From the NCBI GenBank assembly GCA_036380695.1, contig DASVEG010000023.1:1-56703 (forward strand): a DNA stretch of 56,703 nt, given 5' to 3'. This DNA is from Acidimicrobiales bacterium (GTDB lineage: Bacteria > Actinomycetota > Acidimicrobiia > Acidimicrobiales > CADCTF01). Below are positions 1-56,055 of this stretch, in pieces. Positions within the stretch are counted from its first letter, which is position 1. Each line of letters begins with the position of its first letter. The notes beneath the pieces were generated by a model. It saw only the letters and a program-made list of their open reading frames with translations, searched no databases and had not been told where the DNA came from. The translations under genes were made by a program, and so were the position numbers.

Positions 1-72
1 CTCAACGGTTCGTGTCTTCCGACACCGCTCTGCTTCACACGCGACTCCGAGGCCACGCGAACATGGACCGGT

Positions 73-984
73 GTGGTCGCATCCGACAGCGCGGCCTTCG
101 GGAAAGAGGATCAGCGGAATGGTGCACAGACGATGGATCCAAGGCTGAGGAGCCTTCACGCGCTGGGCACGTCGATCGCGAACTCGTATCGAGACACTGC
201 TGCCGCAGCCATACTGTGCGGCTCCGTTCGACGAGGCACGCCAGACGAGTATTCGGACGTGGACCTTACGATCCTCTACGAGACGGTCACCGGAGTCGCG
301 GCCGCACACACGCGACGACCCGCGAGTGCCGTACTGCTCCGGCAGCAGGAGTCGGACTCCTACGGAATCGTCGAGACATTTGTGGTCGAGCGCACGAGGG
401 TTGACGTCCACCATCTTCCTCTGGCCACGGCGCGACGCGATGTGCAAGCGGTCGTGGCCGCGGACACGGCTGCTGCGCTGAATGACCAACGGCAGGGACT
501 GTGCGCCGAGCTCGCCGAGGCTGACGCAATCTTCGGTGGCTCTGTCGTGGAGGAGCTCAGGCGGCCGCTCCGCCCTTATCCGGCAAGGCTCGGTGTCGCG
601 ATGATCAAGGCACATGCCGAGCTTCCCGGACGATGGATGCTTGTTCGCGATCTCCAGAGAGATGACCTCGCCGCTTTCTACCGGGGCGTGATCGAAATCG
701 AGCGCCGCCTTCTCGGGCTGCTCCTGGGGCTGAATCGCGTGTATCACCCGCCGAACCTGAAAGCGATCGCGCAAGTCTGTGTCGCGTTCCGGGCGGCGCC
801 GCTGGACCTGGCCAGTCGTTTGCAACGCGCACTATCCGACCCTCCACGCTTCGGCCTCGCGACCCTGGACTCGCTGGTTGCCGAGACAGCGAGCTTGGAG
901 GGCGCACCGACTGCGGAGTTCAAACGAACTGCCGCCACCTACTTCGCGATTCCGGACTGGGTCATGGGCTCGGATGCGCCGTAG
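73..984 (+). CDS. nucleotidyltransferase-domain protein (Pol-beta superfamily) with ~200-aa helical C-terminal region
   Basis: Long ORF with the NTase signature CGSVRRGTPDEYSDVDLTILYE (G-S...D-x-D). Start uncertain: GTG 73 or ATG 133. Confidence 0.7.
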   Translation: MVASDSAAFGKEDQRNGAQTMDPRLRSLHALGTSIANSYRDTAAAAILCGSVRRGTPDEYSDVDLTILYETVTGVAAAHTRRPASAVLLRQQESDSYGIVETFVVERTRVDVHHLPLATARRDVQAVVAADTAAALNDQRQGLCAELAEADAIFGGSVVEELRRPLRPYPARLGVAMIKAHAELPGRWMLVRDLQRDDLAAFYRGVIEIERRLLGLLLGLNRVYHPPNLKAIAQVCVAFRAAPLDLASRLQRALSDPPRFGLATLDSLVAETASLEGAPTAEFKRTAATYFAIPDWVMGSDAP

Positions 985-1078
985 GTCGTCGACGTCGGCA
1001 ATCGCCGTCGCGGCAATTCAGCCGCGGCAGCCGTACCGCCGATACCCCGGATCGCTTAGCGATTAGCTGGCAACACGC

Positions 1079-1241
1079 CTTCAGCTGGTCTCATTGGGTC
1101 CCGGCGGGGCGGCTCGTCTTCAGCTGGTCTCATTGGGTCCCGGCGGGGCGGCTCGTCTTCAGCTGGTCTCATTGGGTCGCGGCGGGGCGGCTCGTCTTCG
1201 GCTGGTCTCATTGGGTCCCGGCGGGGCGGCTCGTCTTCAGC
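1079..1241. repeat. 39-bp tandem repeat, 4 full units plus a 7-nt partial unit
   Basis: Unit cttcagctggtctcattgggtcccggcggggcggctcgt at 1079, 1118, 1157 (1 substitution) and 1196 (1 substitution), then partial cttcagc. Lies between two convergent genes. Confidence 0.95.
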
Positions 1242-1303
1242 GGGCGGCATGGGTCGACCTTACTTTCGAGCTCGTGTGCAGAACCGAGTCATCAGTTTGC
1301 GGA

Positions 1304-1945
1304 TCACATCGTGGCTAGGCCGACCGAGAGATGAAGCGACGGCACGTCCCCGCCGAACGTCCGATGCACAACGCCACGTGGCACGTAGAGCATGTCCCCC
1401 TCTCCGAGCAGCACGCGACCTCCCGAGGCGGCGTCACCGCCGAGCTCCCATGTCTTCCGCCCTGCGGCCTGCAGCGCGATTACATCGTGAGCATCGTCAT
1501 GCCAGGGGAAACCCTGGCATGGGCCAGCCGGCGACGGTGGCGTGAAGTACGCGTTGATGCCGACGCGAGCCCCGAGCTTCACCTCGAGCTCACGACGAAA
1601 GACGCCTACGGGCGGGACGAGGCTGTCGATCGCGACCACCAACATTGTGTACCCGTCCAGGAGCGCACCGCGTACGACACTCCGTCCATAGGTGCGGCCC
1701 CTCCTTGGGAGTGCGCGCACTCCTTGGTCTTCATCCTGCGTTTGAACGAACCACGCGTCCGAGGTGGCGAGGCCGTCATCGACCAGCCGCCAAATGTCCG
1801 TCTCGGACAACAGCGTGTTGAATAGGTGTCGACCGCCTCGCGCAACAGCCACTGGCGAACCGATCACCTGGTCACCGTCGGCGCGCGCAAACTCCGCCAC
1901 AACGTGCACCACATCGGCGAGTGCAACGGGACCCGTGCGATTCAT
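1304..1945 (-). CDS. cupin/JmjC-like (cupin-4) domain protein, short form
   Basis: ORF with barrel motifs FPWHDDAHDVIALQAAGRKTW, GDMLYVPRGVVH and SLHLSVG. The protein stops right after the barrel, so the usual C-terminal domain appears absent. Confidence 0.6.
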   Translation of the reverse strand: MNRTGPVALADVVHVVAEFARADGDQVIGSPVAVARGGRHLFNTLLSETDIWRLVDDGLATSDAWFVQTQDEDQGVRALPRRGRTYGRSVVRGALLDGYTMLVVAIDSLVPPVGVFRRELEVKLGARVGINAYFTPPSPAGPCQGFPWHDDAHDVIALQAAGRKTWELGGDAASGGRVLLGEGDMLYVPRGVVHRTFGGDVPSLHLSVGLATM

Positions 1946-1978
1946 TGAACCACCGACCGTAGGGTCGCGGCGTCATGA

Positions 1979-2455
1979 AGGGCTCCCGAGCGCAATCGGC
2001 ACGAGTTGCGTGAGCAGGACTTAACGATCGTGCCGGGGTTCCTCAACTCCGATGAGCTGCAGGCGCCCCGGGAGGCACTGTAGCTGCACGACCTCCGACC
2101 CGAGGAGTACTTCGCCGACCCGCTAGCCCATGAGCAGTACACCCGAAGCCAGTTCGGCGGGGTTCGCATGGTCCTGTGGCCGTCGTGGGACCTGAACCGG
2201 CTGGCGTTCCACCCCGACCCGGCGGACCCGGCCGAGCGCTTCCTCGGATCGGCCGACGTTCCTCTGGAACGCGGAGCCATGGGCGAAATATGCGGGCCAT
2301 CGACAACGAGCAGCTGCACCATCGCGACGACGTGAACCACACACTCGTGGTGCCACACGGAGCCGGGCCACGCCCGGCGAACCGAAAGTTCGGCTTCCCT
2401 GCAATCGCGGACCACTACTGGGACGGACAGACGCTCACCGACGTGCAGTGTCGCC
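1979..2455 (+). pseudogene. phytanoyl-CoA dioxygenase (PhyH)-like gene remnant
   Basis: Reads IVPGFLNSDELQAPREAL-TAG(2081)-LHDLRPEEYFADP...LAFHPD...FLGSADVP, then LWNAEPWAKYA in a second frame and AIDNEQLHHRDDVNHTLVVP in a third. That is one in-frame stop and two frame switches. The 3' end abuts repeat copy A. Confidence 0.5.
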
Positions 2456-2488
2456 CCCTCCCCCCCCGGCTCGGATGGACATGTCGCC

Positions 2489-2550
2489 CTACTCGACCAA
2501 CGGCAGCGTGACGTCCATGTAGGTAAGCGGCGAGTCGCCCCTCCGACACG
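2489..2550 (-). repeat. recombinase-3'-end repeat, copy A (full site, inverted orientation)
   Basis: The reverse complement reads cgtgtcggaggggcgactcgccgcttacctacatggacgtcacgctgccgttggtcgagtag. The first 50 nt are identical to copy B. Confidence 0.9.
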
Positions 2551-3310
2551 ACGTTTGCTACATGGGATTCCGCCCGTCACCCGGACGGATCGGCTGGTCG
2601 GATCGAACGTCATCTGGATACCCAGCTGTTCCAGCAGCCGGTTCCGTCCTGTCGCATCGGCGCCGCGTAGAGCGGCCGCGGCGGCGCTCAGGTCAGCCAG
2701 GAGCACCGCTGCTTCGTCCGCGGCAGACGGCGCTGTAGCGCCGGTCTGACCAACTGCACCGGCGAGGACCTGCTGCGCGATGGCTCGCTCCGCCGCCGTT
2801 TCCGAGATCCACTTGCCGATGACCGATGCGTCATCCGCCGTCATCGAGGGCGCGCCTGTAGTTGGCCAGCCGAACGTCGCACTGAGCGATTGTCTCCCGC
2901 GCCTGTCCCGCCCTGTCGGTCGAGTTCACGTCCGACGCCAACACTTCAAGCCCCGCGATGACTGCGGCCCTCGTGTCCTCGATGTGGTCGTCGTCGAACG
3001 CCCTCTCGAGCCGTGGCTCGACAACCTTCAGGATGAGGGACTCGCGGACGTAAACCGTCTTCGGATGGCAGCCGTTCGTCGTGGCGTACTCGATCGGGTA
3101 ACGACAGCGGTAGTAGGCCGCGCCGTTGTTCCACGTGCCTTCCATCCGTCTCTCGCACAGGCCGCACCTCATGACCCGCCGGAGCACGTATGGACGTGGT
3201 GTCGCGCGCGCCTTGCGAACCGTTGCGACGGGTGGCGCGACCGTGATCCTCGACTGCACGGCCTCCCACTCCTCGACCGTGATGATCGGTTCGTGGCTCA
3301 TCGACCTCGC
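2489..3310 (-). pseudogene. large serine recombinase, 5'-truncated and frameshifted
   Basis: Minus-strand ORFs 2831-3376 and 1942-2844 together read HEPIITVEEWEAVQ, CGLCERRMEG...YYRC (Zn ribbon), a coiled coil, then ...VGGATRRL. No resolvase catalytic domain lies upstream. Frame switch near 2840. Confidence 0.75.
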
Positions 3311-3467
3311 GGACGCACCCGTCGAGCTAGCGCCGTCGTTGCGGCGAGCCGTGGGTTGGGCGGCCGCCCGCCTCATTGCGCAAGAGCGTGATGGTGCTGA
3401 CCTCCGTCCCGATCGGGACAGCGTTACCCGCTGGCGCTACCCGGCCGAAGGGGTTGGAGCGACCGAC

Positions 3468-4187
3468 ATGCCGCAGGTCGCGCGCCTGTGCCGGTGGGTG
3501 GCCGTGGAGCCGACATCGGCGCGACTGTCTGTAGCTCGCAAGGTCGCCGCCGCTCGGCTAACCGATCCCCTTGTGGCCGGTGAAGCCGTGATCGAAGCGG
3601 CGGAGATCGCTTACCGCCAGACAGTTGACTCGACCGTCCAGCAGGCCCTGGCACGTCAGGCCGAACTTGAGCAGACGTTTCGAGGAATCGATAGTGATCT
3701 CAGTTCCGCCCGGTCGGACCTCGCGAAATCTCTCGATCAGACCGTCCTCCGTGCCGCCGCGGGACTGGTAGCGATCGCAGCGGCCTCGGCGGCTGCCGAA
3801 GAAGGCTCTCCGGGATTCATACGCTTTGGAAGCCTCCTCGTGGCCGGCTACGTGCTCTTCAGTGCCACCGTGGAGTTGGAGGTCGCCCGGCGAGATATCG
3901 ACGGCCGGATCGTCGCGTTCACGGGCGTCCTGGACACGAGAGGGCAGGACCTCGCTCATAGCGCCACCAACAGCCTCAAGGCCTGGCGCGCTCAGCTCAA
4001 GCGACCTGCTCGACTCATCCGCGTGAGCCTCGTTGGGGCCGCTTGTGTCATCGCAGTCGGAGGATTGGTCGCTGCCGAGAATGTCTCGACGGCGTCGACG
4101 GCTCGAACAGGGCGAACAACAACCACGAGCGCGCCCGCGTCGACCTCACCACCAGGGTCAGCAACCACGGCGTCATCCACCCCGTAG
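3468..4187 (+). CDS. hypothetical coiled-coil/membrane protein (about 3 TM segments, Ser/Thr-rich tail)
   Basis: ORF 3126-4187. ATG 3468 is preceded by GGAG 8 nt upstream. GC3 is about 70-75%, lower than in core genes. Earlier start codons overlap the recombinase remnant. Confidence 0.4.
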   Translation: MPQVARLCRWVAVEPTSARLSVARKVAAARLTDPLVAGEAVIEAAEIAYRQTVDSTVQQALARQAELEQTFRGIDSDLSSARSDLAKSLDQTVLRAAAGLVAIAAASAAAEEGSPGFIRFGSLLVAGYVLFSATVELEVARRDIDGRIVAFTGVLDTRGQDLAHSATNSLKAWRAQLKRPARLIRVSLVGAACVIAVGGLVAAENVSTASTARTGRTTTTSAPASTSPPGSATTASSTP

Positions 4188-4266
4188 CCGAGCGCGTCGG
4201 CGAAGGTCACTTCCTCGACGTCGACCCGAGCAACGCCGAACCGTGGGCCCGCGAACGACGCGCGCG

Positions 4267-5361
4267 TCATCGCCAGATCGGGTACCAGGCGTTGAGACGC
4301 TCGCCCCGTCTTACATTGAGATCCATAGCCCTCCTGATCGCGCCTTCCCAATACCCCGGCCCTTGCCAGTGGCAGTAGTCGGCGCCGCCGAGCTTGCCTT
4401 GGGCGGCGCTGGTCGCCCACTCCGCGACGTCTCTAGTCGTGGAGACGGGCGTGAACGACGCGCCGGTCCTGTCTGTGATCTCGCCGGCGACGGCGAGGTT
4501 CCCCGTCGGGACGCCATGCCAATACCTGTAGCCCGCGCCAATGTCTTGCTCCACTTGAGCCAGCGATTCAGAAAAGCCGAGATACGCGACCCCGTCTCGG
4601 AACGTCAGACCGCAGAGATACTCGTCGGTCGAGGTCGTCACTTTCGCGGCGATCCAGCGGAAGTCTCCGCCGGGAGGACGTGCATCGAGCCACCGGCGTA
4701 GCGCATCCTCACTCCCGACTCGGTCGGCGAAGGTGTGGATGGGCTCATCCGGGTGGATCCGGTCCATCGTCCCCCACTGGACGCGAAGCGGAAAGCCCGT
4801 CCACTCGCCAGTTTCATCTCGGTGTACCAGTTCTGGGCAGATCTCCGCGAAGAATTGACACGCGTCGAGAAGCGGCTCGAGCGTTGGTCTGCATGCGACG
4901 AGCTGGTCGTAGTGGGGCTTGAGAGCTCGGGTGGGCTCGTGAAGGAGAACGTGGACATCGGGCGGTACGCCTCTCCAATGCGACGAGGTGCGGAAACCCA
5001 GCCCGAGGTTGTTGCCGAAAACCGCATCTGGCTCCGGCACCACTGGGTGAAGAAGGTGTTGGCCGACGTTGCGTACGTACCGGAACGCTTCGATCGTTCG
5101 GGCGCCGTGATCGCCACGCGCGAGGCGCGCCTCGAAGAGGATGCGGTAGTCGGGGGTCGCGAGCTCAGTTCGCATCACGTCATTGAGCTTCTGTATGAAT
5201 GCCACAGCAGAGCGAACTGGAGTCGTGTAGTCGTCGGGATCCGCGATGAAGCCCGCCGTTCGACGGTGGTAGTCAGCGATCGACACCTGCACGTCGCGCA
5301 TCGCGGACCGCATCGGCTCAATCTCATCGGGCTGCAGCTGGACGACGGTCGGACCTGTCAT
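4267..5361 (-). CDS. hypothetical protein, 364 aa, no recognisable domain
   Basis: Long clean ORF with non-repetitive, protein-like composition. Convergent with 3468-4187. Confidence 0.65.
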   Translation of the reverse strand: MTGPTVVQLQPDEIEPMRSAMRDVQVSIADYHRRTAGFIADPDDYTTPVRSAVAFIQKLNDVMRTELATPDYRILFEARLARGDHGARTIEAFRYVRNVGQHLLHPVVPEPDAVFGNNLGLGFRTSSHWRGVPPDVHVLLHEPTRALKPHYDQLVACRPTLEPLLDACQFFAEICPELVHRDETGEWTGFPLRVQWGTMDRIHPDEPIHTFADRVGSEDALRRWLDARPPGGDFRWIAAKVTTSTDEYLCGLTFRDGVAYLGFSESLAQVEQDIGAGYRYWHGVPTGNLAVAGEITDRTGASFTPVSTTRDVAEWATSAAQGKLGGADYCHWQGPGYWEGAIRRAMDLNVRRGERLNAWYPIWR

Positions 5362-5459
5362 CTAGTCAGCTTCACGTCGGGGCCGGGTTGTTCATCATCA
5401 CCCCAAGCCTCGTCGATCGCCGTGACCTCTGTGGCCGAAAGCCATCGATCGGCCGCTGA

Positions 5460-6026
5460 CCAAAGTCTGGGCGCGCCAGGCACGCGCCCCAAGCGATCGA
5501 CGCATCACCGGATGTCCGCGCGCTACTACCACCGGCAAAGGGCGGCCTGCTCAATCGCACCGTGGCGTGGCGAGCCTTCGGCGTGCTGGGGCCGACCGTA
5601 ACCGTGATGTCTATGGCCGCCTTTCTGGCGACGTTCGTTGCTGCCGGCTGGCGCCCCGGTGACCCGTTCCCGGGCGGCGACGTTGCCGCGGCGGCATCCG
5701 GCGCCGCCTTCATGACCGTGGTGATCGCGCAGAGCGCGAACGCGTTCGCCTGTCGCGGCTCCTCGCGGTGGGCGGGCGCGCTCGGGTGGACGACGAACCA
5801 CTTGCTCCCGCCCGCCGCGGCGATCGAGCTGGTGTTCGCGTTGTCGGTCATCGCCGTGCCCGCGCTCGCGACGCAGCTCGACCACCGGCTGCCGACCCCC
5901 GTCGGGTGGAGTGTCGCGCTCGCGTCGGGCGTCGTCGTGCTGGTAGCCGATGCCGCCGACAAGCGCCGCCGCGGTCGGTCGCGGCTCCGGTCCGCGCGAC
6001 GAGATGCCGCGCCGCCCCGTCCGTAG
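5460..6026 (+). pseudogene. P-type ATPase C-terminal fragment (5'-truncated paralogue)
   Basis: Frame opens after TGA 5457. Reads ...LLNRTVAWRAFGVLGP...FMTVVIAQSANAFACRGS...WSVALASGVVVLVADAADKRRR, typical of the last TM helices of cation ATPases. It is not the same gene as 13305-15776. Confidence 0.65.
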
Positions 6027-6428
6027 GCATCGGACGCCTCCGATCCCGCGGCCGAAGCCGCTCGTCAGACGATCGTGGAGGCTCGACGGAAGATCGAGCG
6101 GCACATGGCGGCGTTGGAGGCGGGCGTCGATCCCGCGCTCGTCGCCGAGCGGACGCGGAAGGCACAGTCGGAGATCGTCGCCGCTGAGGCGATCCTCAAT
6201 TCGACCCCCGACGCGCCCGCGCCGCTCACGGTCGACGAGGTGGTGGCAACGCTCGAAGCGCTCCGCAACGTCCCGCGGTTGCTCGAGGTCAGCGGACCCC
6301 GCGATCCGGGCCGAGGTCTACGCATCGCTCGGTATCACGCTGACCTACCGCCGGGAGGGTGATGCCGAGTACATCCAGGTCAGCGCACAGATCGGGGGCG
6401 TCGACCTGGAGCGTGTCGGAGGGGCGAC
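5902..6428 (+). repeat. left copy of a ~510-530-bp inverted duplication (ATPase tail plus recombinase 3' remnant)
   Basis: Matches the reverse complement of 54661-55170. Shared translations are PxGWSVALASGVVVLVADAADKRRR and MEARRKIERH.AALEAGVD.ALVAERTR.AQSE. About 90% similar, with indels. Confidence 0.85.
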
Positions 6429-6473
6429 TCGCCGCTTACCTACATGGACGTCACGCTGCCGGTGGCTGAGTAG
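6040..6473 (+). pseudogene. large serine recombinase 3' remnant (coiled-coil and C-terminus only), frameshifted
   Basis: Reads EARRKIERHMAALEAGVDPALVAERTRKAQSEIVAAEAIL...VATLEALRNVPRLLE, then in a second frame ADPAIRAEVYASLGITLTYRREGDAEYIQVSAQIGGVDLERVGGATRRL. Confidence 0.75.
6412..6473 (+). repeat. recombinase-3'-end repeat, copy B (full site)
   Basis: cgtgtcggaggggcgactcgccgcttacctacatggacgtcacgctgccggtggctgagtag. 50/50 nt identical to copy A, although the upstream coding DNA differs. Confidence 0.9.
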
Positions 6474-6493
6474 TAGCGACCCGTGACGATCTC

Positions 6494-6518
6494 CAACTGC
6501 TGTCTAGGACAGCAGTTG
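6494..6518. terminator. perfect 11-bp stem / 3-nt loop hairpin at the 3' end of the NACHT gene
   Basis: caactgctgtc-tag-gacagcagttg. The NACHT stop codon (6504-6506) spans the last stem base and two loop bases. TTT follows on the plus strand. Confidence 0.5.
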
Positions 6519-9500
6519 TTTCGACACCGGACTCGCGGGGTCGATCATCCACGCAACAACTTGCTCCCACTCCGCTGCAGGGAACGTCTGACCGGCGTCG
6601 GCCAGAAGTCGTCGCGCGTTCCAGCGCTCAGATCCACCGATCAATCCGATCAGGGCATGAGCGAGGCCGGTCTTGATGTACGCGTCCATGACATCGCCAG
6701 CCGACGGGATGTCAGTCGATGTCATGTGTCTTCGCAGCTCCAAAGATGCGGCGTGTGCGCGTGACGGGTCAATCGCGGCGAGAGCGCGGGCGATGTCCGC
6801 TGCGGCCCACGCATCGGTTGCACTTCGCAAGGCATCTTCGAGCCTGCGAGACACGACCTTCGCGAGTGCGGGCGCGAGTGTCACTACGAGCCGAGCCGGC
6901 TCGGAGATAGACCAGGAGTCAGAGTCGGCGATCGCAGCCGTCAGTTCGTTCACCACCTCGCCGTGCAAGGTCGGATCGAGTCGAACGGCTAGTTCCGCAT
7001 AGCCAGCGATTGCGCGTCGATCGATGGCGTGGAGCGAGTCAACTAGCTGCCGGGCTATTGCCGGGCTTGCGACGTCAAGCCTGGCGGCAGCGCGACCGGC
7101 TCGGAACGCGTACTCGGCGGGCATCGCCGCCGCGACCTGCTCGAGACGCGTCGCGACATCGCGGGTACCGCGAGCTTCGAGCTCGGCCTCGAGCTCCAAC
7201 AGCCGGATTAGGTCGCCGCCCACCGCGGCGGCGCTCCGCCCCTGAACCGCCTGAACGAGCCTCTCGTTGTACGAGGGGTCGAGCTCTCTTATCGCACGGC
7301 TGATCTCCGAGAACTGTTTGAGCGGCCGCGCCTCCATGTGTTGCCACACGACATCGATCGCCTCCCGTAGCCGGCGAGGGGACGAGCGCGCGATGCAGCC
7401 GAGCAGCGACGGGACGTCGACGACGTCCGGGGTCCCGAGACGGGAGATGACGAGATCCACAAGCGGCTCGAAGACTTCGTCAAGCGATTCGTCGATGAGC
7501 GCGGCCATCCCGGCGAAGTCGGACGGCCTCGCGCGACTCATCGCAGACAGGAGCGCCCGCACGGCGTGTTCGGGCATCGGGTCGACTACCGACACGAGCG
7601 CGGTGGCCGTAGTGACGATCCACGTCGTCCCAGCATCGAGCATGCGAACGAGGGTGTCGACGACGTCAGGGAGGCGTCTCGGGTCGAGCTCGACTGCGGT
7701 TATGGCGAGGTCGATGGTCGATGAGTACAAGTCCCTCGACTCGAGGCGGGCGAGAACGGCGCGAACCGACGCCTCGCGGGCGTCCTCACCCAGATCCGCT
7801 ACGACGCGAGCGAGGCTTGTTAGGTAACGCCGCTCGCATTTCGACAGGAGGCCGACGAGTTCCGCCGAGTGTTCGCGAACGAGGGTTTGATCGATCGCCG
7901 CGAGAGCCGCAACGACTTCGGTGATATCGCTGGTCGACGCCGTCGGCTGGGAGCTCAACATGTCGCCTAGCCGCGCGCGAAGAGCAGGAACCGCGGGGTG
8001 GGGCGACCACTGTCGAGTCCGTGCTGCCTCGGCGGCAGTGGCGCTGGCCATCAGTGCTCGTAGTAGTGCCACGCTGTCTTGTCGCCACTCCTCGGGATGC
8101 GACGCAGCCGCAGTCGTGATGAGGAGCTGGCGTACTTCCCCCGCGACTTCGAGTGGACGGTTATCCGCGTCCCCTGGGATCAGGGCCTTGAGAAACGCGT
8201 CCCGGTCAGTTGACTGTGCGACGGCCGAAGGCAGGAGGACAGCCCACGGCTCCCAGAAGAACAGGTGTCGGCGCGCGAGCTCCGCGCGATCCGCCGCCGG
8301 CATCGCGGCCAGGTGCTTCGCCGCGAGGTGTTCTTGAAGGGTGCGATGCAGAAACGCGACCTCTCGATCACCGAGCGGGTCGAGCAACGTCATTGCGATG
8401 CTGCGCTCGTGCTGGGGAAGCGCGTCGAGCGGGGTGATCGCCGGCGAGAGAAGTGACACAGCCTCCTGGAGCGTTGTCCTTCGCGTCGGTTCAGTGGGCG
8501 CCAAAGTCGACCAGGCCACGTCGCTCAGGACGCGCACCCATGACGGCACGCGTCTCGACGCGTCGAGATCGCTCATGCGGGGCGATGCCCGCTCGGTCGC
8601 CTCGCGGAAGAGCATGGCCTCTATCGCGACGTCATACAGCTGCGGAACCGTTGTTGGGACACTCGCGCCTCGACGCAGTGAGTACGCGCACGCTTGCACC
8701 GCGAGGACTGCGAGCAAGGGGACCCGAAGCCCGTCGCCGGCGAGGCGAACTGGCGAGTCCGGAGCGAGGACCACACGCGCGACGTGCGGTACGCCAAGCG
8801 CCCGCGACACTCGGCGAACCAGATTCGCCGCGTGGCTCTCCGACATGTGCTCCAGGCGGCCGACGCTTCGCCCGATTCGCGGTTGCCCGTGCGGCGCAAA
8901 CACTCCTCGTGGTCTCTCAGCGTGGCTCGTTCGACATGTGAGAAGCAGCGACACACGCTCGGAGGACAGCAGCAGCTGAAGGTGCTCCATCAGCAGCTCC
9001 GTACGGGCGGCTTCGTCCCACCCGTCCAATACGACCGTGAGCGGCTGGTCGGCGCGCGCGACGAGTCGTTCGGCACGATCGCGATCCAACCAGGACGATC
9101 TCGAGGGTGACACGAGCGCCCCCCAGAGGTTCGCGGACTCCTCCAACTCCGCGCATCGAGCGAGGAGGGGAATTGACACCGCTTCTACGGGGGCGCCTCG
9201 TTGTAGATCTGCGAGCGCGCGCCGCGCGGTTTCCAAGGCGTGTCTGTGTGCGAGCCACGACTTTCCGCTGCCCGGCGCGGCCTCGATCATCAGCCTTCGG
9301 TGCCTTCGGACGGCATGATCGAATTCGATCGTCTGATCCGAGACCCGCAAGGTTGCTGGTCGGTGGAGCTCATCTAGCGTCGCGTCGAATCCCTGCCTGT
9401 CCGGTAGTGCGCGGAGAAGCCACTCGACTAGCGCGATGAGGTACGAGCGAACCTCGGAAGCGCTGGCGGGAGTTCGCGCAAGCCCTTCGAGCTCACGCGC

Positions 9501-10040
9501 GACGAGCTCCGTGACGCGACGTGCGGACCGCGCACGGATCTCAGCGTGTCGGAGCTGCGGGGCGAACAAGCCGACGTCCAACGCCGCTCCGAACAGAACC
9601 AAGAGGTCGAAGGCGAACTGAAGGCGCTCCGCCTGCTGGAACTCGTGGGACACGGAGGCATTCAGGTCCAGAGCGCCGGCGATCGCGTGGACGAGATTCG
9701 CCATCACGGCCTCATCGATTAGACCTGGAGCGGTCTCGACCCAGACGTCCGCCAGATCCTCCACGGCTGTCTCGCTCTGCAGTACTTGCTCGAGCCTCTG
9801 ACGTTCCTCGGGCGCTAGCGAGGTTCGCGTTGTCCGGCCGATCGCTGGCCGCTCATCGCCGTTCGTTTGCAGCCAGTCGGCAGCTGTGTCGAGTGCGGCG
9901 CTGATCCTGTCAAGTCGGGTTGCCTCACGCCTCTTCTGCGAGAACCCGGCGCGCATTTGCTCAAGCGACAGCTCCAGTAGCGCTCCGCCTATCGCCCAAC
10001 CGAGTTCCGCCGACATCGCGAGCCAGGGTAGATGGCGCAC
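6504..10040 (-). CDS. NACHT/STAND P-loop NTPase with C-terminal HEAT/ARM-like helical repeats and an uncharacterised N-terminal ~250 aa
   Basis: 1178-aa ORF. Walker A is IEAAPGSGKS (about 9258-9290). Walker B is LTVVLDGWDEA. The C-terminal half has repeated helical units with recurring xLDP motifs. GTG start at 10040 (ATG alternative at 10016). Confidence 0.85.
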   Translation of the reverse strand: MRHLPWLAMSAELGWAIGGALLELSLEQMRAGFSQKRREATRLDRISAALDTAADWLQTNGDERPAIGRTTRTSLAPEERQRLEQVLQSETAVEDLADVWVETAPGLIDEAVMANLVHAIAGALDLNASVSHEFQQAERLQFAFDLLVLFGAALDVGLFAPQLRHAEIRARSARRVTELVARELEGLARTPASASEVRSYLIALVEWLLRALPDRQGFDATLDELHRPATLRVSDQTIEFDHAVRRHRRLMIEAAPGSGKSWLAHRHALETARRALADLQRGAPVEAVSIPLLARCAELEESANLWGALVSPSRSSWLDRDRAERLVARADQPLTVVLDGWDEAARTELLMEHLQLLLSSERVSLLLTCRTSHAERPRGVFAPHGQPRIGRSVGRLEHMSESHAANLVRRVSRALGVPHVARVVLAPDSPVRLAGDGLRVPLLAVLAVQACAYSLRRGASVPTTVPQLYDVAIEAMLFREATERASPRMSDLDASRRVPSWVRVLSDVAWSTLAPTEPTRRTTLQEAVSLLSPAITPLDALPQHERSIAMTLLDPLGDREVAFLHRTLQEHLAAKHLAAMPAADRAELARRHLFFWEPWAVLLPSAVAQSTDRDAFLKALIPGDADNRPLEVAGEVRQLLITTAAASHPEEWRQDSVALLRALMASATAAEAARTRQWSPHPAVPALRARLGDMLSSQPTASTSDITEVVAALAAIDQTLVREHSAELVGLLSKCERRYLTSLARVVADLGEDAREASVRAVLARLESRDLYSSTIDLAITAVELDPRRLPDVVDTLVRMLDAGTTWIVTTATALVSVVDPMPEHAVRALLSAMSRARPSDFAGMAALIDESLDEVFEPLVDLVISRLGTPDVVDVPSLLGCIARSSPRRLREAIDVVWQHMEARPLKQFSEISRAIRELDPSYNERLVQAVQGRSAAAVGGDLIRLLELEAELEARGTRDVATRLEQVAAAMPAEYAFRAGRAAARLDVASPAIARQLVDSLHAIDRRAIAGYAELAVRLDPTLHGEVVNELTAAIADSDSWSISEPARLVVTLAPALAKVVSRRLEDALRSATDAWAAADIARALAAIDPSRAHAASLELRRHMTSTDIPSAGDVMDAYIKTGLAHALIGLIGGSERWNARRLLADAGQTFPAAEWEQVVAWMIDPASPVSKQLLS

Positions 10041-10136
10041 TTGGCCGATTTGTTCGGCCGTTAGGCCCTCTGTCCTCGGCCTGTTGGTTATGCGTCCGCG
10101 CCCAGGCGACGGTCGCCGCGGGGAGGTCCAGACTTC

Positions 10137-10189
10137 GGGGCGACTCGCCGATTACCTACATGGACCTCAAGCTGCCCCTGGTCGAGTAG
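10137..10189 (+). repeat. recombinase-3'-end repeat, copy C (core plus right arm, 5 mismatches)
   Basis: ggggcgactcgccgattacctacatggacctcaagctgcccctggtcgagtag. The upstream flank is unrelated to copies A and B. Confidence 0.8.
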
Positions 10190-10203
10190 CTCCGACGATG
10201 CCG

Positions 10204-10647
10204 CTACACGAACTCGATGCTGGCCGCTTCGTACTTGGCCGGACCCGTCAGACCCGCCCTCTCGAACGACTGAAGCCGATAGTTCTCAGCCGCCGTCACG
10301 AGCGCGACCTCGTCGAGGCGCGGAAGCTCGGCCAGCCACGCCTCGGCCGTCTGGAGACGTAGCAAATCCTCGGCGGCTAACGACCAAACATGATCGCAGT
10401 GCGGAGCATCGGGCGAGTCGTTCCTTGGGACAGGCCGCTCTTCGGCAGCGCAACGGTCGTAGACCGCTTGCACAGCCTTCGAGCGGCGCTCGACACTGTC
10501 CCGCCTGTTCGTGTTCCGCTTGCGAAGTTGGTCCTTGACTACTCGGATCGCCACGAGCGCCTCGAGCTCTCCCGACGTCACGGCTCGGGCGAGAGCTGCG
10601 CCAAGTGCTGCGAATCGGGAGTCACGAAGCGGGGGCTCAGGTGTCAT
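10204..10647 (-). CDS. hypothetical 147-aa protein co-transcribed with the HNH protein (possible immunity or partner protein)
   Basis: ATG 10647 (or GTG 10662) lies 18 nt (or 3 nt) after the upstream stop at 10665. Contains PHCDHVWS...VALVTAAENYRL, faintly reminiscent of His-Me/DUF1524-type motifs. Confidence 0.6.
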   Translation of the reverse strand: MTPEPPLRDSRFAALGAALARAVTSGELEALVAIRVVKDQLRKRNTNRRDSVERRSKAVQAVYDRCAAEERPVPRNDSPDAPHCDHVWSLAAEDLLRLQTAEAWLAELPRLDEVALVTAAENYRLQSFERAGLTGPAKYEAASIEFV

Positions 10648-10664
10648 CTGCTCGTCACTCACGC

Positions 10665-11942
10665 TCAAGCCCCCACACCCCGCGTGTGCGCGACCGCCGG
10701 CCACACCCGCAGGACGTGAGCGGACGGACGGTCGGGATCGATGGCGTCGAGACGAGCCTCGTAGCTCTCGTAGTCGGGAATGAACCGCACCGACGCCCAT
10801 CGACGACGGTCGCTGCGAATCTTGCGGCGTTTGGGAGTCAGCTCATAGACGCCCCTGACGCCGCTGCGCCCGAGTTCGTACGCGGCGATCGCCGGGGATG
10901 CAGCACCCTTGCCGACCGCGGTGAGGTCGAAGCCATTGCCGTGTCCAGCACGCCATGACTGGCGGACGAGCTCTCCTACGGAGCCAGCGACCACGCCCCC
11001 GACGATCATGCCGCCGATCATCGGGATCGCGACCGGCGTGGCTCCAGCAGCGCCGAGGCCGACGAACGCGACAGGGGTGGCGGCGTTGGCGATAGCAAGG
11101 CCAGCCCCCCAGCCCGCCAGAGCGCCGACTCCTCCGATGCCGCCCGCGGCGGCAATGGGCACCGCGTCGAAGCCCTCGCGCCGACCCTCGTGGAGGTCCC
11201 ACGCCTGGATGCCCGTCTCCACAGCCGCCCCAACGACAATGCCGATGACGGTCGCGCCAACGGCGCCGCCGATGCTGAAGCGGCGGATGTTGTAGAACTC
11301 GCCATTGCGCTCGATCAGCCGCATGCCGTTGTCGGGAACGAGCCGACCGTCGGGCCCGATGCGGACACCTTCGTGCCGCTCGACGAAGACCTCGATGGCA
11401 TTGCGGCGCGCGATGTTCGCAGCCGGGTCGGCGGCCCGAAGGTTGGACAGGTCGATAGATGAGCCGCCGTGAGAGTGCGGAACTGCATGGTCGATGTGGA
11501 AGTTGTCGAACGCGATGGGCCTGCCGGTCAGCCAGCACTTGCCACCCGCCGCCTCGTAAACCGCGCGGCGGATCGCCTCGTTCCAGCCACCGCGAATCGG
11601 GTCGACGCCGACGCCTTGAAGGACTTCGACGACCAGCCCGTCGACGGGGATGCCCCATCTGCCGAACTCAGCTGCGTAAATCACATTGGCCTCGGCAAGC
11701 AGGGCGCCGTAGCCCCCGCCTCCCGCTGCAGCTGCGCTCGGGACAAGCGCGGGATCGATGCCCAACCGAGTTGCAGAGCGCCTCGCTTCGATCTCAGCCG
11801 GGTCGGGCGGTGAGATGCGGATGAAGAGATCCGCGGCGACGGATCCTACGGTCGTGGTTGATGGTTGGACGTCGATCATGGGAGGCGAGCTCTTCGAGCT
11901 TGATCGGTAGGCCTCCCGCGTACCGTGAGGCCTAACCAGCAT
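10665..11942 (-). CDS. HNH endonuclease fused to a glycine-zipper-rich membrane region
   Basis: ATG 11942 is preceded by CGGAGGATTA. HNH core is CWLTGRPIAFDNFHIDHAVPHSHGGSSIDLSNLRAADPAANIARRN (about 11400-11510), followed by about 110 aa of GxxxG/A hydrophobic repeats. The track ORF start at 12242 runs through repeat D and is rejected. Confidence 0.75.
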   Translation of the reverse strand: MLVRPHGTREAYRSSSKSSPPMIDVQPSTTTVGSVAADLFIRISPPDPAEIEARRSATRLGIDPALVPSAAAAGGGGYGALLAEANVIYAAEFGRWGIPVDGLVVEVLQGVGVDPIRGGWNEAIRRAVYEAAGGKCWLTGRPIAFDNFHIDHAVPHSHGGSSIDLSNLRAADPAANIARRNAIEVFVERHEGVRIGPDGRLVPDNGMRLIERNGEFYNIRRFSIGGAVGATVIGIVVGAAVETGIQAWDLHEGRREGFDAVPIAAAGGIGGVGALAGWGAGLAIANAATPVAFVGLGAAGATPVAIPMIGGMIVGGVVAGSVGELVRQSWRAGHGNGFDLTAVGKGAASPAIAAYELGRSGVRGVYELTPKRRKIRSDRRRWASVRFIPDYESYEARLDAIDPDRPSAHVLRVWPAVAHTRGVGA

Positions 11943-12003
11943 TAATCCTCCGTACCGTGGGCCGCGGCGGGTGGGGTCGAGCCCCACGGGAGACCGAGAC
12001 CTC

Positions 12004-12050
12004 GGGGGGACTCGCCGCTTACCTACATGGACGTCACGCTGCCGTTGATC
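12004..12050 (+). repeat. recombinase-3'-end repeat, copy D (core plus right arm)
   Basis: ggggggactcgccgcttacctacatggacgtcacgctgccgttgatc. 38 consecutive nt are identical to copy A. The terminal stop codon is lost. Confidence 0.85.
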
Positions 12051-12157
12051 GTCCGTCGAGCACATGGGGGCGCCGCGGGCTCGGCGCCAAGGGCGACGGC
12101 GTGTCGGTACCGAGGTCGAGCGCACACACCGTGCCGGACAGGTGGTCGTCACGACTA

Positions 12158-54250: not shown

Positions 54251-54660
54251 GACCACCTCCCACCGAAGGGTTCGCCAACCGGCGAGCACGCTTCGGCAGC
54301 TCCACGGTGCGACGGCTCGGCGAGCCGTCGTAAGGGGCGAACGACCCTACGGAGGCGCTGCTCACCACTCGTGTGACGACGCCCATCGCTCGGCGCGCGA
54401 TAGACGCCATCCTTGCGTTGTCAGCCGGGCGCGAACGAGTTCCACGACGGGAGGCAGGTCGCTCATGCAAGCCCACGAATCGGCCGGGTCGGTGAACGAC
54501 GAGGATCGGCTTCGTGCCGCCGCTCAAGACGAGGGCGATGCGTCGGCGTCTGACGGGTGACTTGGGTCCGCGGGTGACAGAGGCCTATGCCGCTCTCGGC
54601 AGCAACAAGTCCGCGGAAGCCAGGTCAAGTGGCCGATTGGGGCGTGGACTTCGTGCGCGT

Positions 54661-55170
54661 GTCGCCCCTCCGACACGCTCCAGGTCCACGCCCCCGACCT
54701 GTGCGCTGACCTGGATGTACTCGGCGTCACCCTCCCGGCGGTAGGTCAGCGTGATCCCGAGGGACGCGTAGACCTCGGCCCTGATCGTGGGGTCCGCGGA
54801 CTCCAGCAGGCGCGGCACGTTTCGGAGCGCTTCGAGCGTTGCCACCACCTCGTCGCCCGCAGAGGCGCGGGCGCGTCCGGGGGCTTGAGGATCGCCTCAG
54901 CAGCGACCATCTCTGACTGCGCCCTCCGCGTCCGCTCGGCGACGAGCGCGGCGTCGACGCCCGCCTCCAACGCCGCCGTGTGCCGCTCGATCTTCCGTCG
55001 AGCCTCCACGATCGTCTGACGAGCGGGATCGGAGGCGTCCGATGCCTACGGACGGGGTGCCGCGGCATCTCGTCGCGCGGACCGGAGCCGCGACCGACCG
55101 CGGCGGCGCTTGTCGGCGGCATCGGCTACCAGCACGACGACGCCCGACGCGAGCGCGACACTCCACCCGA
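54661..55170 (-). repeat. right copy of the inverted duplication (ATPase tail plus frameshifted recombinase 3' remnant), ending in a left-half copy (E) of the 50-bp site
   Basis: The minus strand reads PIGWSVALASGVVVLVADAADKRRR, MEARRKIERHTAALEAGVDAALVAERTRRAQSE and ADPTIRAEVYASLGITLTYRREGDAEYIQVSAQVGGVDLERVGG. Homology to copy B stops right after ggaggggcgac, at 54661. Confidence 0.8.
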
Positions 55171-56055
55171 TGGCGGTGAACGAACTCGTCGACGGTGGCC
55201 TGTAGGGGCACCGACTTCGACCTCAGGCCGCCGGCCACGGCGTCACGTGTCTCTTGCGGGCCGGGGTCGTCGTTGGTGATGACGTAGTCGAAGATCCCGC
55301 GCCTCCACTTCCCGTCCGCGCCGCACTGAACCTCCGTCGAAGGGCGGGCGCTCGCGGGCCGCGTCGTGGGCGTCGGCCGCCGGGGTCTTCGTCGTCGAGC
55401 CGCCGATGGTGGACAACGCGAACAGCCCTCCGGGCGCCGCCAGCGCGGCGGGGAACACCCACCACTGCCGCCGCCACCCGCTCTGGGTCACCGGTTCCTC
55501 GTCCGTCCCGATCGGCATCATCCGCGGCCTCTGTTCACTTCCTGCTCGATCGATGCACTACTACGCACGGAACTTCGAAAGGAGTCGGTGTATTGCGCCG
55601 GATACCTAGCTGGCTGGTCGTAGCGCTAAACCCAAAGGGCTGCCGCCAGCCGGACCGCTCCCTTCCTACTCGGGGACGCCACGGATCCGATTCTCACCGA
55701 CTCGGGCAGGACACCCGGAGCACGGGCCCGAGCGGCAACCCAAACGAACTCCTCCGCGGCGAGTTCGTCGCGTGCAGCACCCCCATCGGCACAGGTAAGG
55801 CCAGACGCCGGAGGAGGCGGAATGGTCGCCATATCTCGGACGATCGGTACGCCTTTCTGCCAGGAAACAGTGTTGTAGCGCGACCTATTGGCAAAAAGCG
55901 CGTGTCTGGCGGGCGTGTCCGGCGGGCTGGGCCGTCGATGCGGGCAGTTCGGCAGCGTGGGCCGCGACCGACGTCCCGGCTCGTTTCGTTTCGCGCCGCT
56001 CCGTCATGTAGCGGATGGACACGACGTTCGTGCCCTTCATTCCGGGAGGAGCTTC

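What the first reader, a model, noticed from the sequence alone, without database searches (positions are those of the whole stretch)
2489..12050. Five copies of a ~50-bp serine-recombinase 3'-end sequence divide the left 12 kb into cassettes (full, right-half and left-half att-like sites)
The 50-mer cgtgtcggaggggcgactcgccgcttacctacatggacgtcacgctgccg is identical at 2501-2550 (minus strand) and 6412-6461 (plus strand). At both places it forms the last codons of a serine-recombinase remnant, yet the upstream coding DNA of the two remnants is unrelated. So this DNA is conserved far beyond the surrounding protein sequence. Copies at 10137-10189 and 12004-12050 keep only the core plus right arm. 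The copy ending at 54661 keeps only the left arm plus core. All five share just GGGG(C/G)GAC. That pattern is what site-specific recombination at a short core would produce. Between successive direct copies sit discrete minus-strand gene sets: the NACHT gene, then the HNH pair. Each set has its stop codon 15-31 nt from the left repeat and a 60-100 nt promoter gap before the right repeat. Small palindromes (10105-10117 and 11971-11987) lie about 16-19 nt before copies C and D. I read this as a hotspot where defence-like cassettes accumulated in tandem. No intact recombinase is present in the window.
Basis: partly seen in the sequence, partly recalled or inferred. Interest (0 to 1): 0.8.

Follow-up and report, generated by a model that had tools for sequence, protein, structure and literature searches.

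The report
Recombinase att-site scars bounding gene cassettes
The repeated 50-mer is a real recombination site at the 3' end of large serine recombinase genes (half copied from a tRNA-Leu gene, half encoding the recombinase's own tail), and its whole and half copies mark where mobile gene cassettes piled up in a now-decayed integration hotspot.

Summary
The 50-mer is exact at 2501-2550(-) and 6412-6461(+). C and D keep core plus right arm. E keeps left arm plus core.

New findings:
- The left arm plus core (CGTGTCGGAGGGGCGAC) is the antisense of the 3' end of tRNA-Leu(GAG). It also encodes the near-invariant C-terminus (..RVGGGT*) of a large Acidimicrobiia LSR family. In six related loci the LSR stop codon overlaps an intact tRNA-Leu by 20 nt.
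- The right arm R encodes, in frame, the last 15 codons of a second LSR family (..SCRRGD|SPLTYMDVTLPLVE*).
- Site A is a 51-bp dyad, as expected of an LSR attP.
- Across 15 or more loci, at least 3 left arms and at least 6 right arms are joined exactly at GG(G/A)G(C/G)GAC.
- Two other metagenome contigs carry the same arrays with different cargo. One of them ends at an intact tRNA-Leu.

I read this as scars of successive LSR integrations (tandem accretion), plus recombinase-less cassettes bounded by R and a conserved X arm.

All three LSR genes in the window are dead, and the window holds no tRNA. "Defence-like" is only weakly supported. The origin of X and the way the LSR-less cassettes move remain unresolved. 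I rate it a new variant of a known kind.

The parts
2489..2565 (-). Site A, a complete attP-type site (L-core-R) at the 3' end of the A-family LSR remnant. The core is 2541->2534 and R is 2533->2489, ending in TAG. The dyad arms are 2558-2565 and 2515-2522.
   Evidence: The 50-mer is exact here. The inverted repeat CCATGTAG/CTACATGG matches 8/8 and spans 51 bp, centred in the core. R reads ..CRRGDSPLTYMDVTLPLVE*, matching the C-terminus of P0157.
2489..3436 (-). A-family large serine recombinase pseudogene. It has no catalytic domain, frameshifts near 2835 and 2555, and an in-frame TAG at 2560-2558.
   Evidence: Pfam Zn_ribbon_recom 1.3e-8. Frame translations. It is 54% identical to P0157. blastn aligns L022 10417-11208 to window 3296-2502.
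5480..6026 (+). C-terminal fragment of a P-type cation ATPase gene. Its last ~45 codons lie inside the B/E duplication.
   Evidence: Pfam Cation_ATPase_C 4.6e-16. It is only 26% identical to the intact ATPase at 13305-15776.
6040..6428 (+). B-family LSR remnant: the C-terminal ~130 codons, frameshifted near 6300.
   Evidence: It is 80% identical to P0001 and 71% to P0002. Frames are shown.
6412..6473 (+). Site B, a hybrid junction. The B-family LSR tail and tRNA-Leu 3' end (L, 6412-6420) are joined to the core (6421-6428) and to R (6429-6473, ending TAG TAG).
   Evidence: The left arm lacks the CCATGTAG dyad partner found at A.
6504..10040 (-). Cassette 1 cargo, a 1178-aa NACHT-domain NTPase.
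   Evidence: Pfam NACHT 8.4e-7. GC3 is 0.74 against ~0.88 in chromosomal genes. No PADLOC hit.
10105..10189 (+). Site C: palindrome 10105-10117, X arm 10121-10136, core 10137-10144, and R 10145-10189 ending in TAG.
   Evidence: An 8/8 dyad GAGGTCCA/TGGACCTC flanks the core.
10204..11879 (-). Cassette 2 cargo: a 404-aa HNH-motif protein (10665-11879) and a 147-aa ORF (10204-10647).
   Evidence: Translation shows FHIDHAVPHSHGG...N. Pfam HNH 0.0021, below the curated cutoff. NCBIfam gives only a weak match to the Cas9d HNH region.
11971..12060 (+). Site D: palindrome 11971-11987, X arm 11988-12003, core 12004-12011 (GGGGGGAC), and R from 12012. It is the last copy, and its R side abuts chromosomal genes.
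   Evidence: ADH at 12233-13279 and a P-type ATPase follow, with GC3 0.88-0.90.
54639..55177 (-). Site E and its LSR remnant. It is an inverted duplicate of 5895-6432. L plus core is 54677->54661, joined to a different right arm Y (54660->54639, ACGCGCACGAAGTCCACGCCCC).
   Evidence: Y-type arms also follow B-family LSR tails in L002 and L017.
1..2488 (.). DNA on the R side of site A: an NTP_transf_2/DUF4037 gene (73-984, +), a 5 x 39-bp tandem repeat (1030-1263), and a JmjC/cupin gene (1304-1945, -). It is probably cargo of another unit that runs off the contig.
   Evidence: Pfam. Repeat family D1. GC3 is about 0.71.

Best explanation
The left 12 kb is the decayed remains of an integration hotspot used by two families of large serine recombinase (LSR) elements of Acidimicrobiia. 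The repeated 50-mer is their recombination site. In these elements attP lies inside the last codons of the LSR gene. The 17 nt left of the breakpoint (CGTGTCGGA + GGGGCGAC) are an antisense copy of the 3' end of tRNA-Leu(GAG): the acceptor 3' strand, the T-stem 3' strand and the first T-loop bases. The ~45 nt to the right (R) are the P' arm and also encode the last 15 residues of the A-family LSR (SPLTYMDVTLPLVE*). Recombination within GGGG(C/G)GAC splits the gene. The LSR body plus L-core ends up next to the target's right half. At the natural target this restores the tRNA and gives the LSR a new tail. The orphan core-R piece is left at the other end of the insert, joined to whatever lay left of the target core. 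Each new insertion therefore deposits another core-R copy and pushes older units away. Later deletions and frameshifts killed the LSR genes. By this reading, site A is an intact attP-type site. B, C and D are attL-type hybrids: their left arms are a resident B-family LSR tail (B) or the X arm (C, D). E is a B-family LSR tail joined to a different right arm, Y. The NACHT unit and the HNH unit are cargo units bounded by R on one side and X-core on the other. They carry no recombinase and were most probably moved in trans by an A-family LSR. What is shown: the tRNA identity of L-core, the coding identity of R, the dyad of site A, combinatorial joining at one core in several genomes, and an equivalent array ending at an intact tRNA-Leu. 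What is inferred: the order of events, mobilisation of X-bounded units in trans, and the position of the crossover dinucleotide.
For: 1. tRNA origin. ARAGORN finds an intact tRNA-Leu(GAG) overlapping the LSR stop codon by 20 nt in L007, L008, L010, L011, L014 and L015 (for example LSR 6001-7746 +, tRNA 7727-7811 -) and in L022. The window's L-core matches the first 16 nt of the reverse-complemented tRNA with one mismatch.
2. Breakpoint recurrence. After ..GG(G/A)G(C/G)GAC the sequence switches to the intact tRNA, to tRNA cut at nt 22 (L001, L006) or nt 56 (L009, L012, L013), or to Y (E, L002, L017), R, R', Z and others. Of 120 listed homologues, 79 end ..V(G/E)GGT* and 34 carry alternative tails that diverge right after it.
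3. R is the LSR-A tail. P0157 ends SCRRDDTTVTYMDATLPLATA*. Copies A, B, C and L022-13911 keep the frame and the stop. L022-13911 differs from A by three substitutions, all synonymous.
4. Dyads typical of LSR sites. Site A is 51 bp with 8/8 arms. The L022 site has 22-nt arms (50-bp span) at 73% complementarity. The B-family site in L019 has 17-nt arms at 82% complementarity (37-bp span).
5. Independent arrays. L004 has two copies bracketing one low-GC3 gene. L022 reads X-core-Z ... LSR-A->L-core-R' | 92 aa, 127 aa, TIR | W-core-R' | 62 aa | X-core-R | LSR-A remnant -> tRNA-Leu.
6. Island signature. GC3 is about 0.72 in 1-12 kb against 0.85-0.92 beyond D.
7. Precedent. Successive integration at a tRNA gene that leaves partial tRNAs and integrase fragments is described for tycheposons (10.1101/2020.12.28.424599).
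Against: - The window holds no tRNA gene, so this array is not visibly anchored at tRNA-Leu as the L022 array is.
- The R side of D, and of L4-2 in L004, faces ordinary chromosomal genes instead of an element body ending in an LSR. This needs an extra deletion or inversion, or R also belongs to the target.
- Units that end in X-core or W-core have no LSR. X is conserved in three genomes (five copies) but is unlike the tRNA-derived arm. Its origin is unexplained, and canonical LSRs do not recombine attP with attL-type sites.
- The A-family tail assignment rests on one annotated homologue (P0157) plus the copies themselves.
- R was found in only three contigs. There were no hits in 185,579 species genomes, plasmids, phages or viral contigs.
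- No activity, excision product or empty site was observed.
Confidence: 0.62

Rival explanations
1. This is an integron-like capture platform instead of accretion of whole elements. Small recombinase-less circles carrying a composite X-core-R site are inserted one after another at the L-core-R site at the end of a resident LSR gene. The LSR gene plays the role of intI/attI and X-core-R the role of attC.
For: Three units in the window and L004, plus two in L022, are bounded by R on the left and X-core (or W-core) on the right and hold 1-3 genes and no recombinase. X is conserved across three genomes. The two L022 copies share 48 nt at 94%. Arrays start at an LSR tail (B; L022 11159). The R side of the last copy faces the chromosome, as expected if core-R pre-existed in the target.
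Against: No known LSR recombines two sites that share the same P' half. The X-core-R regions have no significant single-strand structure (z from -1.0 to +0.2), so they are unlike attC. Cassette genes have their own upstream gaps and mixed orientations. No circular form or intact resident LSR was seen. L and X are dissimilar, so one enzyme binding both is not obvious.
Confidence: 0.22
2. No site-specific recombination is involved. The copies arose by segmental duplication and RecA-dependent recombination between ~50-60-bp repeats, and the shared core is a coincidental end of homology.
For: A, B and D are almost identical over 41-50 nt, enough for rare homologous exchange. The 538-bp B/E duplication shows that duplication does occur here.
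Against: Homology ends at the same 8-mer in at least 15 loci from different assemblies, joining at least 3 left and at least 6 right arm classes. The breakpoint lies inside dyad-symmetric sites at LSR 3' ends. The flanks are unrelated, so no duplicated segments surround the copies.
Confidence: 0.06
3. Part of the pattern is an assembly artefact. In particular, the inverted B/E pair and the juxtaposition of D with chromosomal genes would come from a metagenomic contig mis-joined at repeats.
For: The window is a whole 56.7-kb metagenome contig. The repeats sit at the transitions between low-GC3 and high-GC3 DNA.
Against: B and E are only 91% identical, and the other repeats are 50-60 nt, shorter than typical final k-mers. 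The same architecture recurs in two independent assemblies (L004, L022).
Confidence: 0.05

Closest known systems
tRNA-linked genomic islands built by successive integration (for example Prochlorococcus tycheposons; 10.1101/2020.12.28.424599)
   Same: Elements integrate at a tRNA gene, and newcomers push older ones further into the island. The islands hold partial tRNA copies, integrase fragments and cargo, including defence genes. A minority of the elements described there use large serine recombinases.
   Different: Here the recombinase is an LSR whose own last codons are the antisense of the tRNA 3' end. The repeated unit also contains the LSR's C-terminal coding tail. The window itself has lost the tRNA.
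SCCmec and composite SCC arrays at the 3' end of rlmH/orfX in staphylococci (CcrAB large serine recombinases; my own knowledge)
   Same: LSR-driven insertion occurs at one site. Tandem cassettes are separated by direct repeats of the integration-site sequence. Some cassettes lack ccr and depend on recombinases supplied in trans.
   Different: The target there is a protein-gene 3' end, not a tRNA or LSR 3' end. The ccr genes lie inside the cassette, away from the att site. The repeats are ~15-20 bp, against 8 bp plus 45-nt arms here.
SSV1-type archaeal integrases whose attP lies inside the int ORF (my own knowledge)
   Same: attP is a tRNA-derived sequence inside the integrase gene, so integration partitions the gene and leaves an orphan int fragment at the far end of the provirus.
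   Different: Those are tyrosine recombinases in archaeal viruses, and the gene is split near its 5' part and inactivated. Here only the last ~15 codons of a serine recombinase are exchanged.
Integration-dependent immunity of mycobacteriophages (attP inside the repressor gene; C-terminal ssrA-like tags; my own knowledge)
   Same: Integration changes the C-terminus of a phage protein because attP sits in its 3' end. Here 16 of 34 alternative LSR tails end in -AA.
   Different: In those phages the affected gene is the repressor and the integrase is a tyrosine recombinase. No evidence here shows that the tail controls stability.
Integrons
   Same: There is an array of short gene cassettes separated by recombination sites next to a recombinase gene.
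   Different: There is no IntI tyrosine recombinase, no attC-like folded single strand, the cassettes have mixed orientation with their own upstream regions, and the sites are LSR-type dyads.

Membership tests
Large serine recombinase (serine integrase) att system | The recombinase has a resolvase catalytic domain, a recombinase domain and a zinc-ribbon/coiled-coil domain. | tested here: inconclusive
   The window remnants keep only Zn_ribbon_recom or the coiled-coil tail, with no catalytic domain. Full-length relatives have Resolvase + Recombinase + Zn_ribbon_recom.
Large serine recombinase (serine integrase) att system | The att sites are ~40-50 bp with imperfect dyad symmetry around a central crossover. 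| tested here: met
   Site A has an 8/8 dyad spanning 51 bp, centred in the core. The L022 site has 22-nt arms at 73% (50-bp span). The L019 site has 17-nt arms at 82% (37-bp span).
Large serine recombinase (serine integrase) att system | Hybrid attL/attR sites recombine half-sites at one fixed point. | tested here: met
   Left arms L, X and W and right arms R, R', T(tRNA), Y, Z and others are all joined at GG(G/A)G(C/G)GAC.
Large serine recombinase (serine integrase) att system | There is a 2-bp staggered crossover and demonstrable recombination activity. | not testable with these tools
   This needs in vitro or in vivo assays or junction reads.
tRNA-anchored genomic island formed by tandem accretion | An intact target tRNA gene lies at one end of the array. 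| tested here: not met
   The window has no tRNA. The feature is met in the related array L022 (tRNA-Leu 14215-14299) and in six B-family loci.
tRNA-anchored genomic island formed by tandem accretion | Partial tRNA copies and integrase remnants lie inside the island. | tested here: met
   16-17-nt tRNA-Leu 3' fragments lie at A, B and E, each ending an LSR pseudogene.
tRNA-anchored genomic island formed by tandem accretion | Gene content at the site varies between genomes. | tested here: met
   Cargo between homologous sites differs in the window, L004 and L022. An identical LSR (P0045) occurs with SIR2 or PALP on the left and with tRNA-SBP or a HEPN/NTP_transf cassette on the right. No empty site was found for the window's own locus.
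Integron | There is an IntI-type tyrosine recombinase and attC sites that fold as single-strand hairpins. | tested here: not met
   The window has no tyrosine recombinase. Folding z-scores of X-core-R regions run from -1.0 to +0.2.
Tn3-family transposon ends (38-48-bp IR starting GGGG) | Inverted terminal repeats bound a unit with a DDE transposase. | tested here: not met
   Copies B, C and D are direct. No transposase was found. The GGGG ends of A and B face each other instead of bounding a unit.
Known anti-phage defence systems (PADLOC) | The cassette proteins match defence-system models. | tested here: not met
   The NACHT, HNH and small ORFs have no PADLOC hit. Only a weak PDC-S09 hit appears for 73-984.

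The most novel reading that the evidence does not exclude
A large, uncharacterised family of Acidimicrobiia serine recombinases carries attP inside its own last codons, antisense to tRNA-Leu. Every recombination event therefore rewrites the enzyme's C-terminus. Some tails are ssrA-like (-AA) and one form is the bare ..GGGT*, so the tail would act as a built-in sensor of integration state. The same core would also serve as an integron-like docking point where recombinase-less cassettes with a composite X-core-R site are captured and shuffled between elements.
Probability: 0.18. Interest if true: 0.8.

Novelty: new variant of a known kind. Interest (0 to 1): 0.55.

Why it matters
If the reading holds, it defines the att sites (attP, a tRNA-Leu attB, hybrid sites) and the crossover region of a family of more than 1,600 large serine recombinases from uncultured Acidimicrobiia. 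No attachment sites appear to have been described for this family. Such enzymes are sought as genome-engineering tools. It also shows a bacterial LSR whose ORF spans attP and overlaps a tRNA gene, so that integration swaps the enzyme's tail. Finally, it gives a concrete, testable example of how short cargo units such as NACHT, TIR, SIR2 and HNH genes are collected next to one site in a poorly studied phylum.

Tried and rejected
- Rfam and ARAGORN on the window found no RNA family and no tRNA. R is therefore not a tRNA body or a known RNA.
- Alignment of R and Y to the tRNA-Leu body showed no convincing homology for R. Y shares only CCACGCCC with an offset.
- blastn of the site against plasmids and phages gave no match.
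- An exact-pattern scan of 185,579 species genomes gave no match. Four viral-contig scans for R, R/R', X-core and L-core-R also gave none.
- The protein-guided genome scan returned only 2 loci.
- The idea that core plus R is a Tn3-like terminal inverted repeat was rejected on orientation and the absence of a transposase.
- attC-like or structured-RNA folding was not significant.
- My guess that the 'GGPTWT' tails contain R was wrong. L017 shows a Y-type arm.
- No protein in two large searches carries an R-encoded tail in the ..ATRRLPTW frame.
- The look-up of the neighbouring ADH protein, meant to find empty sites in sister strains, was not on record.
- PADLOC and NCBIfam on the cassette proteins gave nothing useful.
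- The 300-aa gene upstream of L4-1 is not an LSR remnant.
- I considered an attB x attP inversion of 12,012-54,660 as the origin of the D(+)/E(-) arm combination. The arms fit, and the GC skew changes sign at both borders. However, the substrates would be non-canonical and nothing tests it, so it stays a conjecture.

Full report
**Observation**

The 50-mer CGTGTCGGAGGGGCGACTCGCCGCTTACCTACATGGACGTCACGCTGCCG occurs exactly twice, at 2501-2550(-) and 6412-6461(+). None of 100 shuffles gave a match. Repeat finding adds C (10121-10184) and D (11988-12051), which share the core and the right arm. It also shows that 5895-6432 is duplicated in inverted orientation at 54657-55177 (90.9% over 538 bp), with the homology stopping at the core. 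The only segment common to all five copies is GGGG(C/G)GAC.

I name the arms by their position relative to the point just after ..GAC.
- L is CGTGTCGGA.
- R is TCGCCGCTTACCTACATGGACGTCACGCTGCCG..TAG.
- X is GGGAGGTC(C/G)AGAC(T/C)TC.
- Y is ACGCGCACGAAGTCCACGCCCC.

On this naming A and B are L-core-R, C and D are X-core-R, and E is L-core-Y.

**Surroundings**

- The window is a complete 56.7-kb metagenome contig, most likely from an Acidimicrobiia bacterium.
- Positions 1-12,000 have GC3 of about 0.72.
- From 12.2 to 54.6 kb lie ordinary chromosomal genes with GC3 0.85-0.92: ADH, a P-type ATPase, the arginine deiminase pathway, a permease and ABC exporters.
- Three LSR pseudogenes are present. 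Remnant A (3436->2489, -) has the zinc-ribbon domain. Remnants B (about 6040-6428, +) and E (about 55030-54661, -) are copies of the same 5'-truncated C-terminal piece. Each is preceded by the last ~45 codons of a P-type ATPase gene; at B the longer C-terminal fragment (about 5480-6026) survives.
- Remnants A and B belong to different LSR families, with about 29% identity in alignment A1.
- Between B and C lies a 1178-aa NACHT protein.
- Between C and D lie a 404-aa HNH-motif protein (10665-11879) and a 147-aa ORF.
- None of the cassette proteins matches PADLOC.

**What the left arm and core are**

Relatives of the B remnant end ...VDLxRVGGGT. In L001, L003 and L006 the DNA continues GGGGGGAC|TTGAAC... 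A search with the intact L006 enzyme found 1,689 homologues.

For one of them (P0045), and for P0098, the genomic places show the LSR stop codon overlapping an intact tRNA-Leu(GAG) gene on the opposite strand by 20 nt. This is seen in six loci, for example L007 with the LSR at 6001-7746 and the tRNA at 7727-7811. L plus core is therefore the antisense of the tRNA's acceptor 3' strand, T-stem 3' strand and first T-loop bases. That explains why this DNA is conserved far beyond the neighbouring protein sequence.

Of the 120 listed homologues, 79 end V(G/E)GGT*. Another 34 carry alternative tails that diverge immediately after GG(G/P)(T/S). At the DNA level the sequence after the core takes several forms:
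- the whole tRNA;
- the tRNA cut at nt 22 (L001, L006);
- the tRNA cut at nt 56, in the anticodon loop (L009, L012, L013);
- a Y-type arm (E, L002, L017);
- other sequences (L019, L020).

The breakpoint is therefore recurrent and precise.

**What the right arm is**

A search with the reconstructed A remnant found P0157 (54% identity). Its annotated ORF ends ...SCRRDDTTVTYMDATLPLATA*. In that frame the window copies read ...CRRGDSPLTYMDVTLPLVE*, with the stop conserved in A, B and C. In remnant A itself, this frame carries a TAG (2560-2558) eight codons upstream of GD. A copy in L022 differs from A by three substitutions, all synonymous. R is thus the genuine 3' end of A-family LSR genes. Remnant A has a 1-nt deletion just upstream, which is why it appeared to read ..ATRRLPTW...

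Site A is flanked by a perfect 8-bp inverted repeat (CCATGTAG/CTACATGG) that spans 51 bp and is centred in the core. The L022 homologue has 22-nt arms at 73% complementarity (50-bp span). A B-family site with its own tail (L019..FPHTTRETIWDVAA*) has 17-nt arms at 82% complementarity (37-bp span), centred on AC|TT. These are the sizes and symmetry expected of serine-integrase att sites (PMC3783163 gives the general model).

**Independent arrays**

The only metagenome hit to R, L004, has two copies 0.8 kb apart. They bracket one 194-aa gene of lower GC3. The second copy is again X-core-R, preceded by a hairpin and facing a chromosomal gene.

L022, a third assembly, reads as follows:
- X-core-Z (396-419);
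- SIR2, TraG and other genes;
- a truncated LSR-A running into L-core-R' (11159-11208);
- ORFs of 92 aa and 127 aa, then a TIR gene;
- W-core-R' (12947-13007);
- a 62-aa ORF;
- X-core-R (13887-13986);
- an LSR-A tail remnant (14046-14231) running into an intact tRNA-Leu(GAG) (14215-14299);
- two-component-system and other chromosomal genes.

This is the same architecture with different cargo, and here it is anchored at the tRNA. The B-family LSR P0045 shows strain-level variation. The identical protein occurs with SIR2 or PALP-CBS on one side, and with tRNA-SBP-secG or a HEPN/nucleotidyltransferase cassette on the other.

**Mechanism proposed**

attP lies in the last codons of the LSR gene. 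Recombination in the core with the tRNA-Leu T-arm region puts the LSR body plus L-core next to the tRNA body, which restores the tRNA. It leaves core-R at the other end of the element, joined to whatever lay left of the target core. Repeated insertions give internal LSR-tail-core-R junctions (B; L022 11159) and further hybrid junctions. Decay then removes the LSR genes.

This is the tandem-accretion pattern described for tRNA-linked islands such as tycheposons, where partial tRNAs and integrase fragments are scattered through the island.

The steps shown are the identities of the arms, the dyads and the combinatorial joining. The order of events and the enzyme responsible for each junction are inferred.

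**What does not fit**

1. The window has no tRNA, and the R side of D (and of L4-2) faces chromosomal genes. On a strict attL reading an element body should lie there.
2. Units ending in X-core or W-core lack an LSR. X is conserved in three genomes. It contains the palindrome GAGGTC-GA-GACCTC, and the two L022 copies share 48 nt at 94%, yet X does not resemble the tRNA-derived arm. X-type left arms carry GAC(C/T)TCG at -14..-8. The Y arms of E and L017 carry CGA(A/G)GTC at +8..+14, while L002 has GAGGTC at +11..+16. X-core-Y would therefore be a symmetric attB-like site, but I never saw it intact. A related GACCTCG(G/C)GGCAC motif also sits at the polymorphic left border of the P0045 LSR module.
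3. The B/E duplication of an already truncated remnant is unexplained. D(+) and E(-) have the arm combination that an inversion between core sites would give, and the GC skew changes sign at both borders. This is conjecture.

Because of points 1 and 2, I keep an integron-like capture of LSR-less X-core-R cassettes as a serious rival.

**Comparison and verdict**

The system works like a serine-integrase att system combined with tRNA-island accretion. It resembles composite SCC arrays, which are LSR-driven, separated by direct repeats, and include ccr-less cassettes. It also resembles SSV-type integrases, whose attP lies inside int. Both comparisons are from my own knowledge. It is not an integron: there is no IntI, and the sites show no attC-like folding. 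It is not a Tn3-like element.

I found no description of an LSR whose ORF ends antisense in tRNA-Leu. The literature search was limited.

I rate it a new variant of a known kind. The elements in this window are dead.

Noticed in passing
window 1030-1263: Five head-to-tail copies of a 39-bp unit (GGCGGCTCGTCTTCAGCTGGTCTCATTGGGTCCCGGCGG) lie between the nucleotidyltransferase gene and the JmjC/cupin gene (family D1).
   Followed up: no
window 5895-6432 and 54657-55177: This 538-bp inverted duplication (91% identity) covers the last ~45 codons of a P-type ATPase gene fragment plus an already truncated LSR tail. The duplication therefore post-dates the truncation. Its inner ends are the core sites, 48 kb apart.
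   Followed up: partly
proteins P0024-P0122 (relatives of the B-family LSR): 80 of 120 homologues carry an internal duplication of the C-terminal ..VDLERVG.. motif, separated by about 22 variable residues (for example ..AVDLERVGVRGPEENSLVPALRSVDLERVGGGT). It looks like a fixed duplication of the att-proximal end of the gene.
   Followed up: no
proteins P0005, P0017, P0021, P0025, P0109 and others: 16 of 34 alternative LSR tails end in -AA (..WDLAA..RAVAA..TIPAA..LCRAA), which recalls ssrA-like degradation tags. Two further tail classes recur across distant LSRs: FPHTTRETIWDLAA-like and ..SDWR.xPW...
   Followed up: no
L009 6670-6725, L012 5287-5342, L013 7727-7782: The same LSR (P0045) is followed by only the 3' 56 nt of tRNA-Leu, cut in the anticodon loop. 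A HEPN plus nucleotidyltransferase (MNT-like) pair comes next. This points to a second insertion point in the same tRNA, probably used by a different integrase.
   Followed up: partly
L001 4847-8041 and 10904-15272; L020 3163-11166: LSR remnants of this family sit next to a TrwC relaxase and next to Mrr, EcoRV-like, methylase and Vsr genes (L001). In L020 they sit next to RelA/SpoT, ParA-like, a second LSR, Vsr, methylase and PLD genes. At least some of these elements look like ICE- or IME-type carriers of restriction and defence genes.
   Followed up: no
window 2450-2458 (-): A second core-like GGGGGCGAC followed by ACTGCACG lies 31 nt beyond the end of site A's R arm. It resembles the E-type junction GGGGCGAC|ACGCGCACG.
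   Followed up: no
L011 2258 / L008 4714: The border between alternative left-hand cargo (PALP-CBS or a 1226-aa SIR2 protein) and the shared LSR module falls at TCGACCTCG(G/C)GGCAC. This is an X-core-like motif. An (AC)n run lies just inside in L011.
   Followed up: partly
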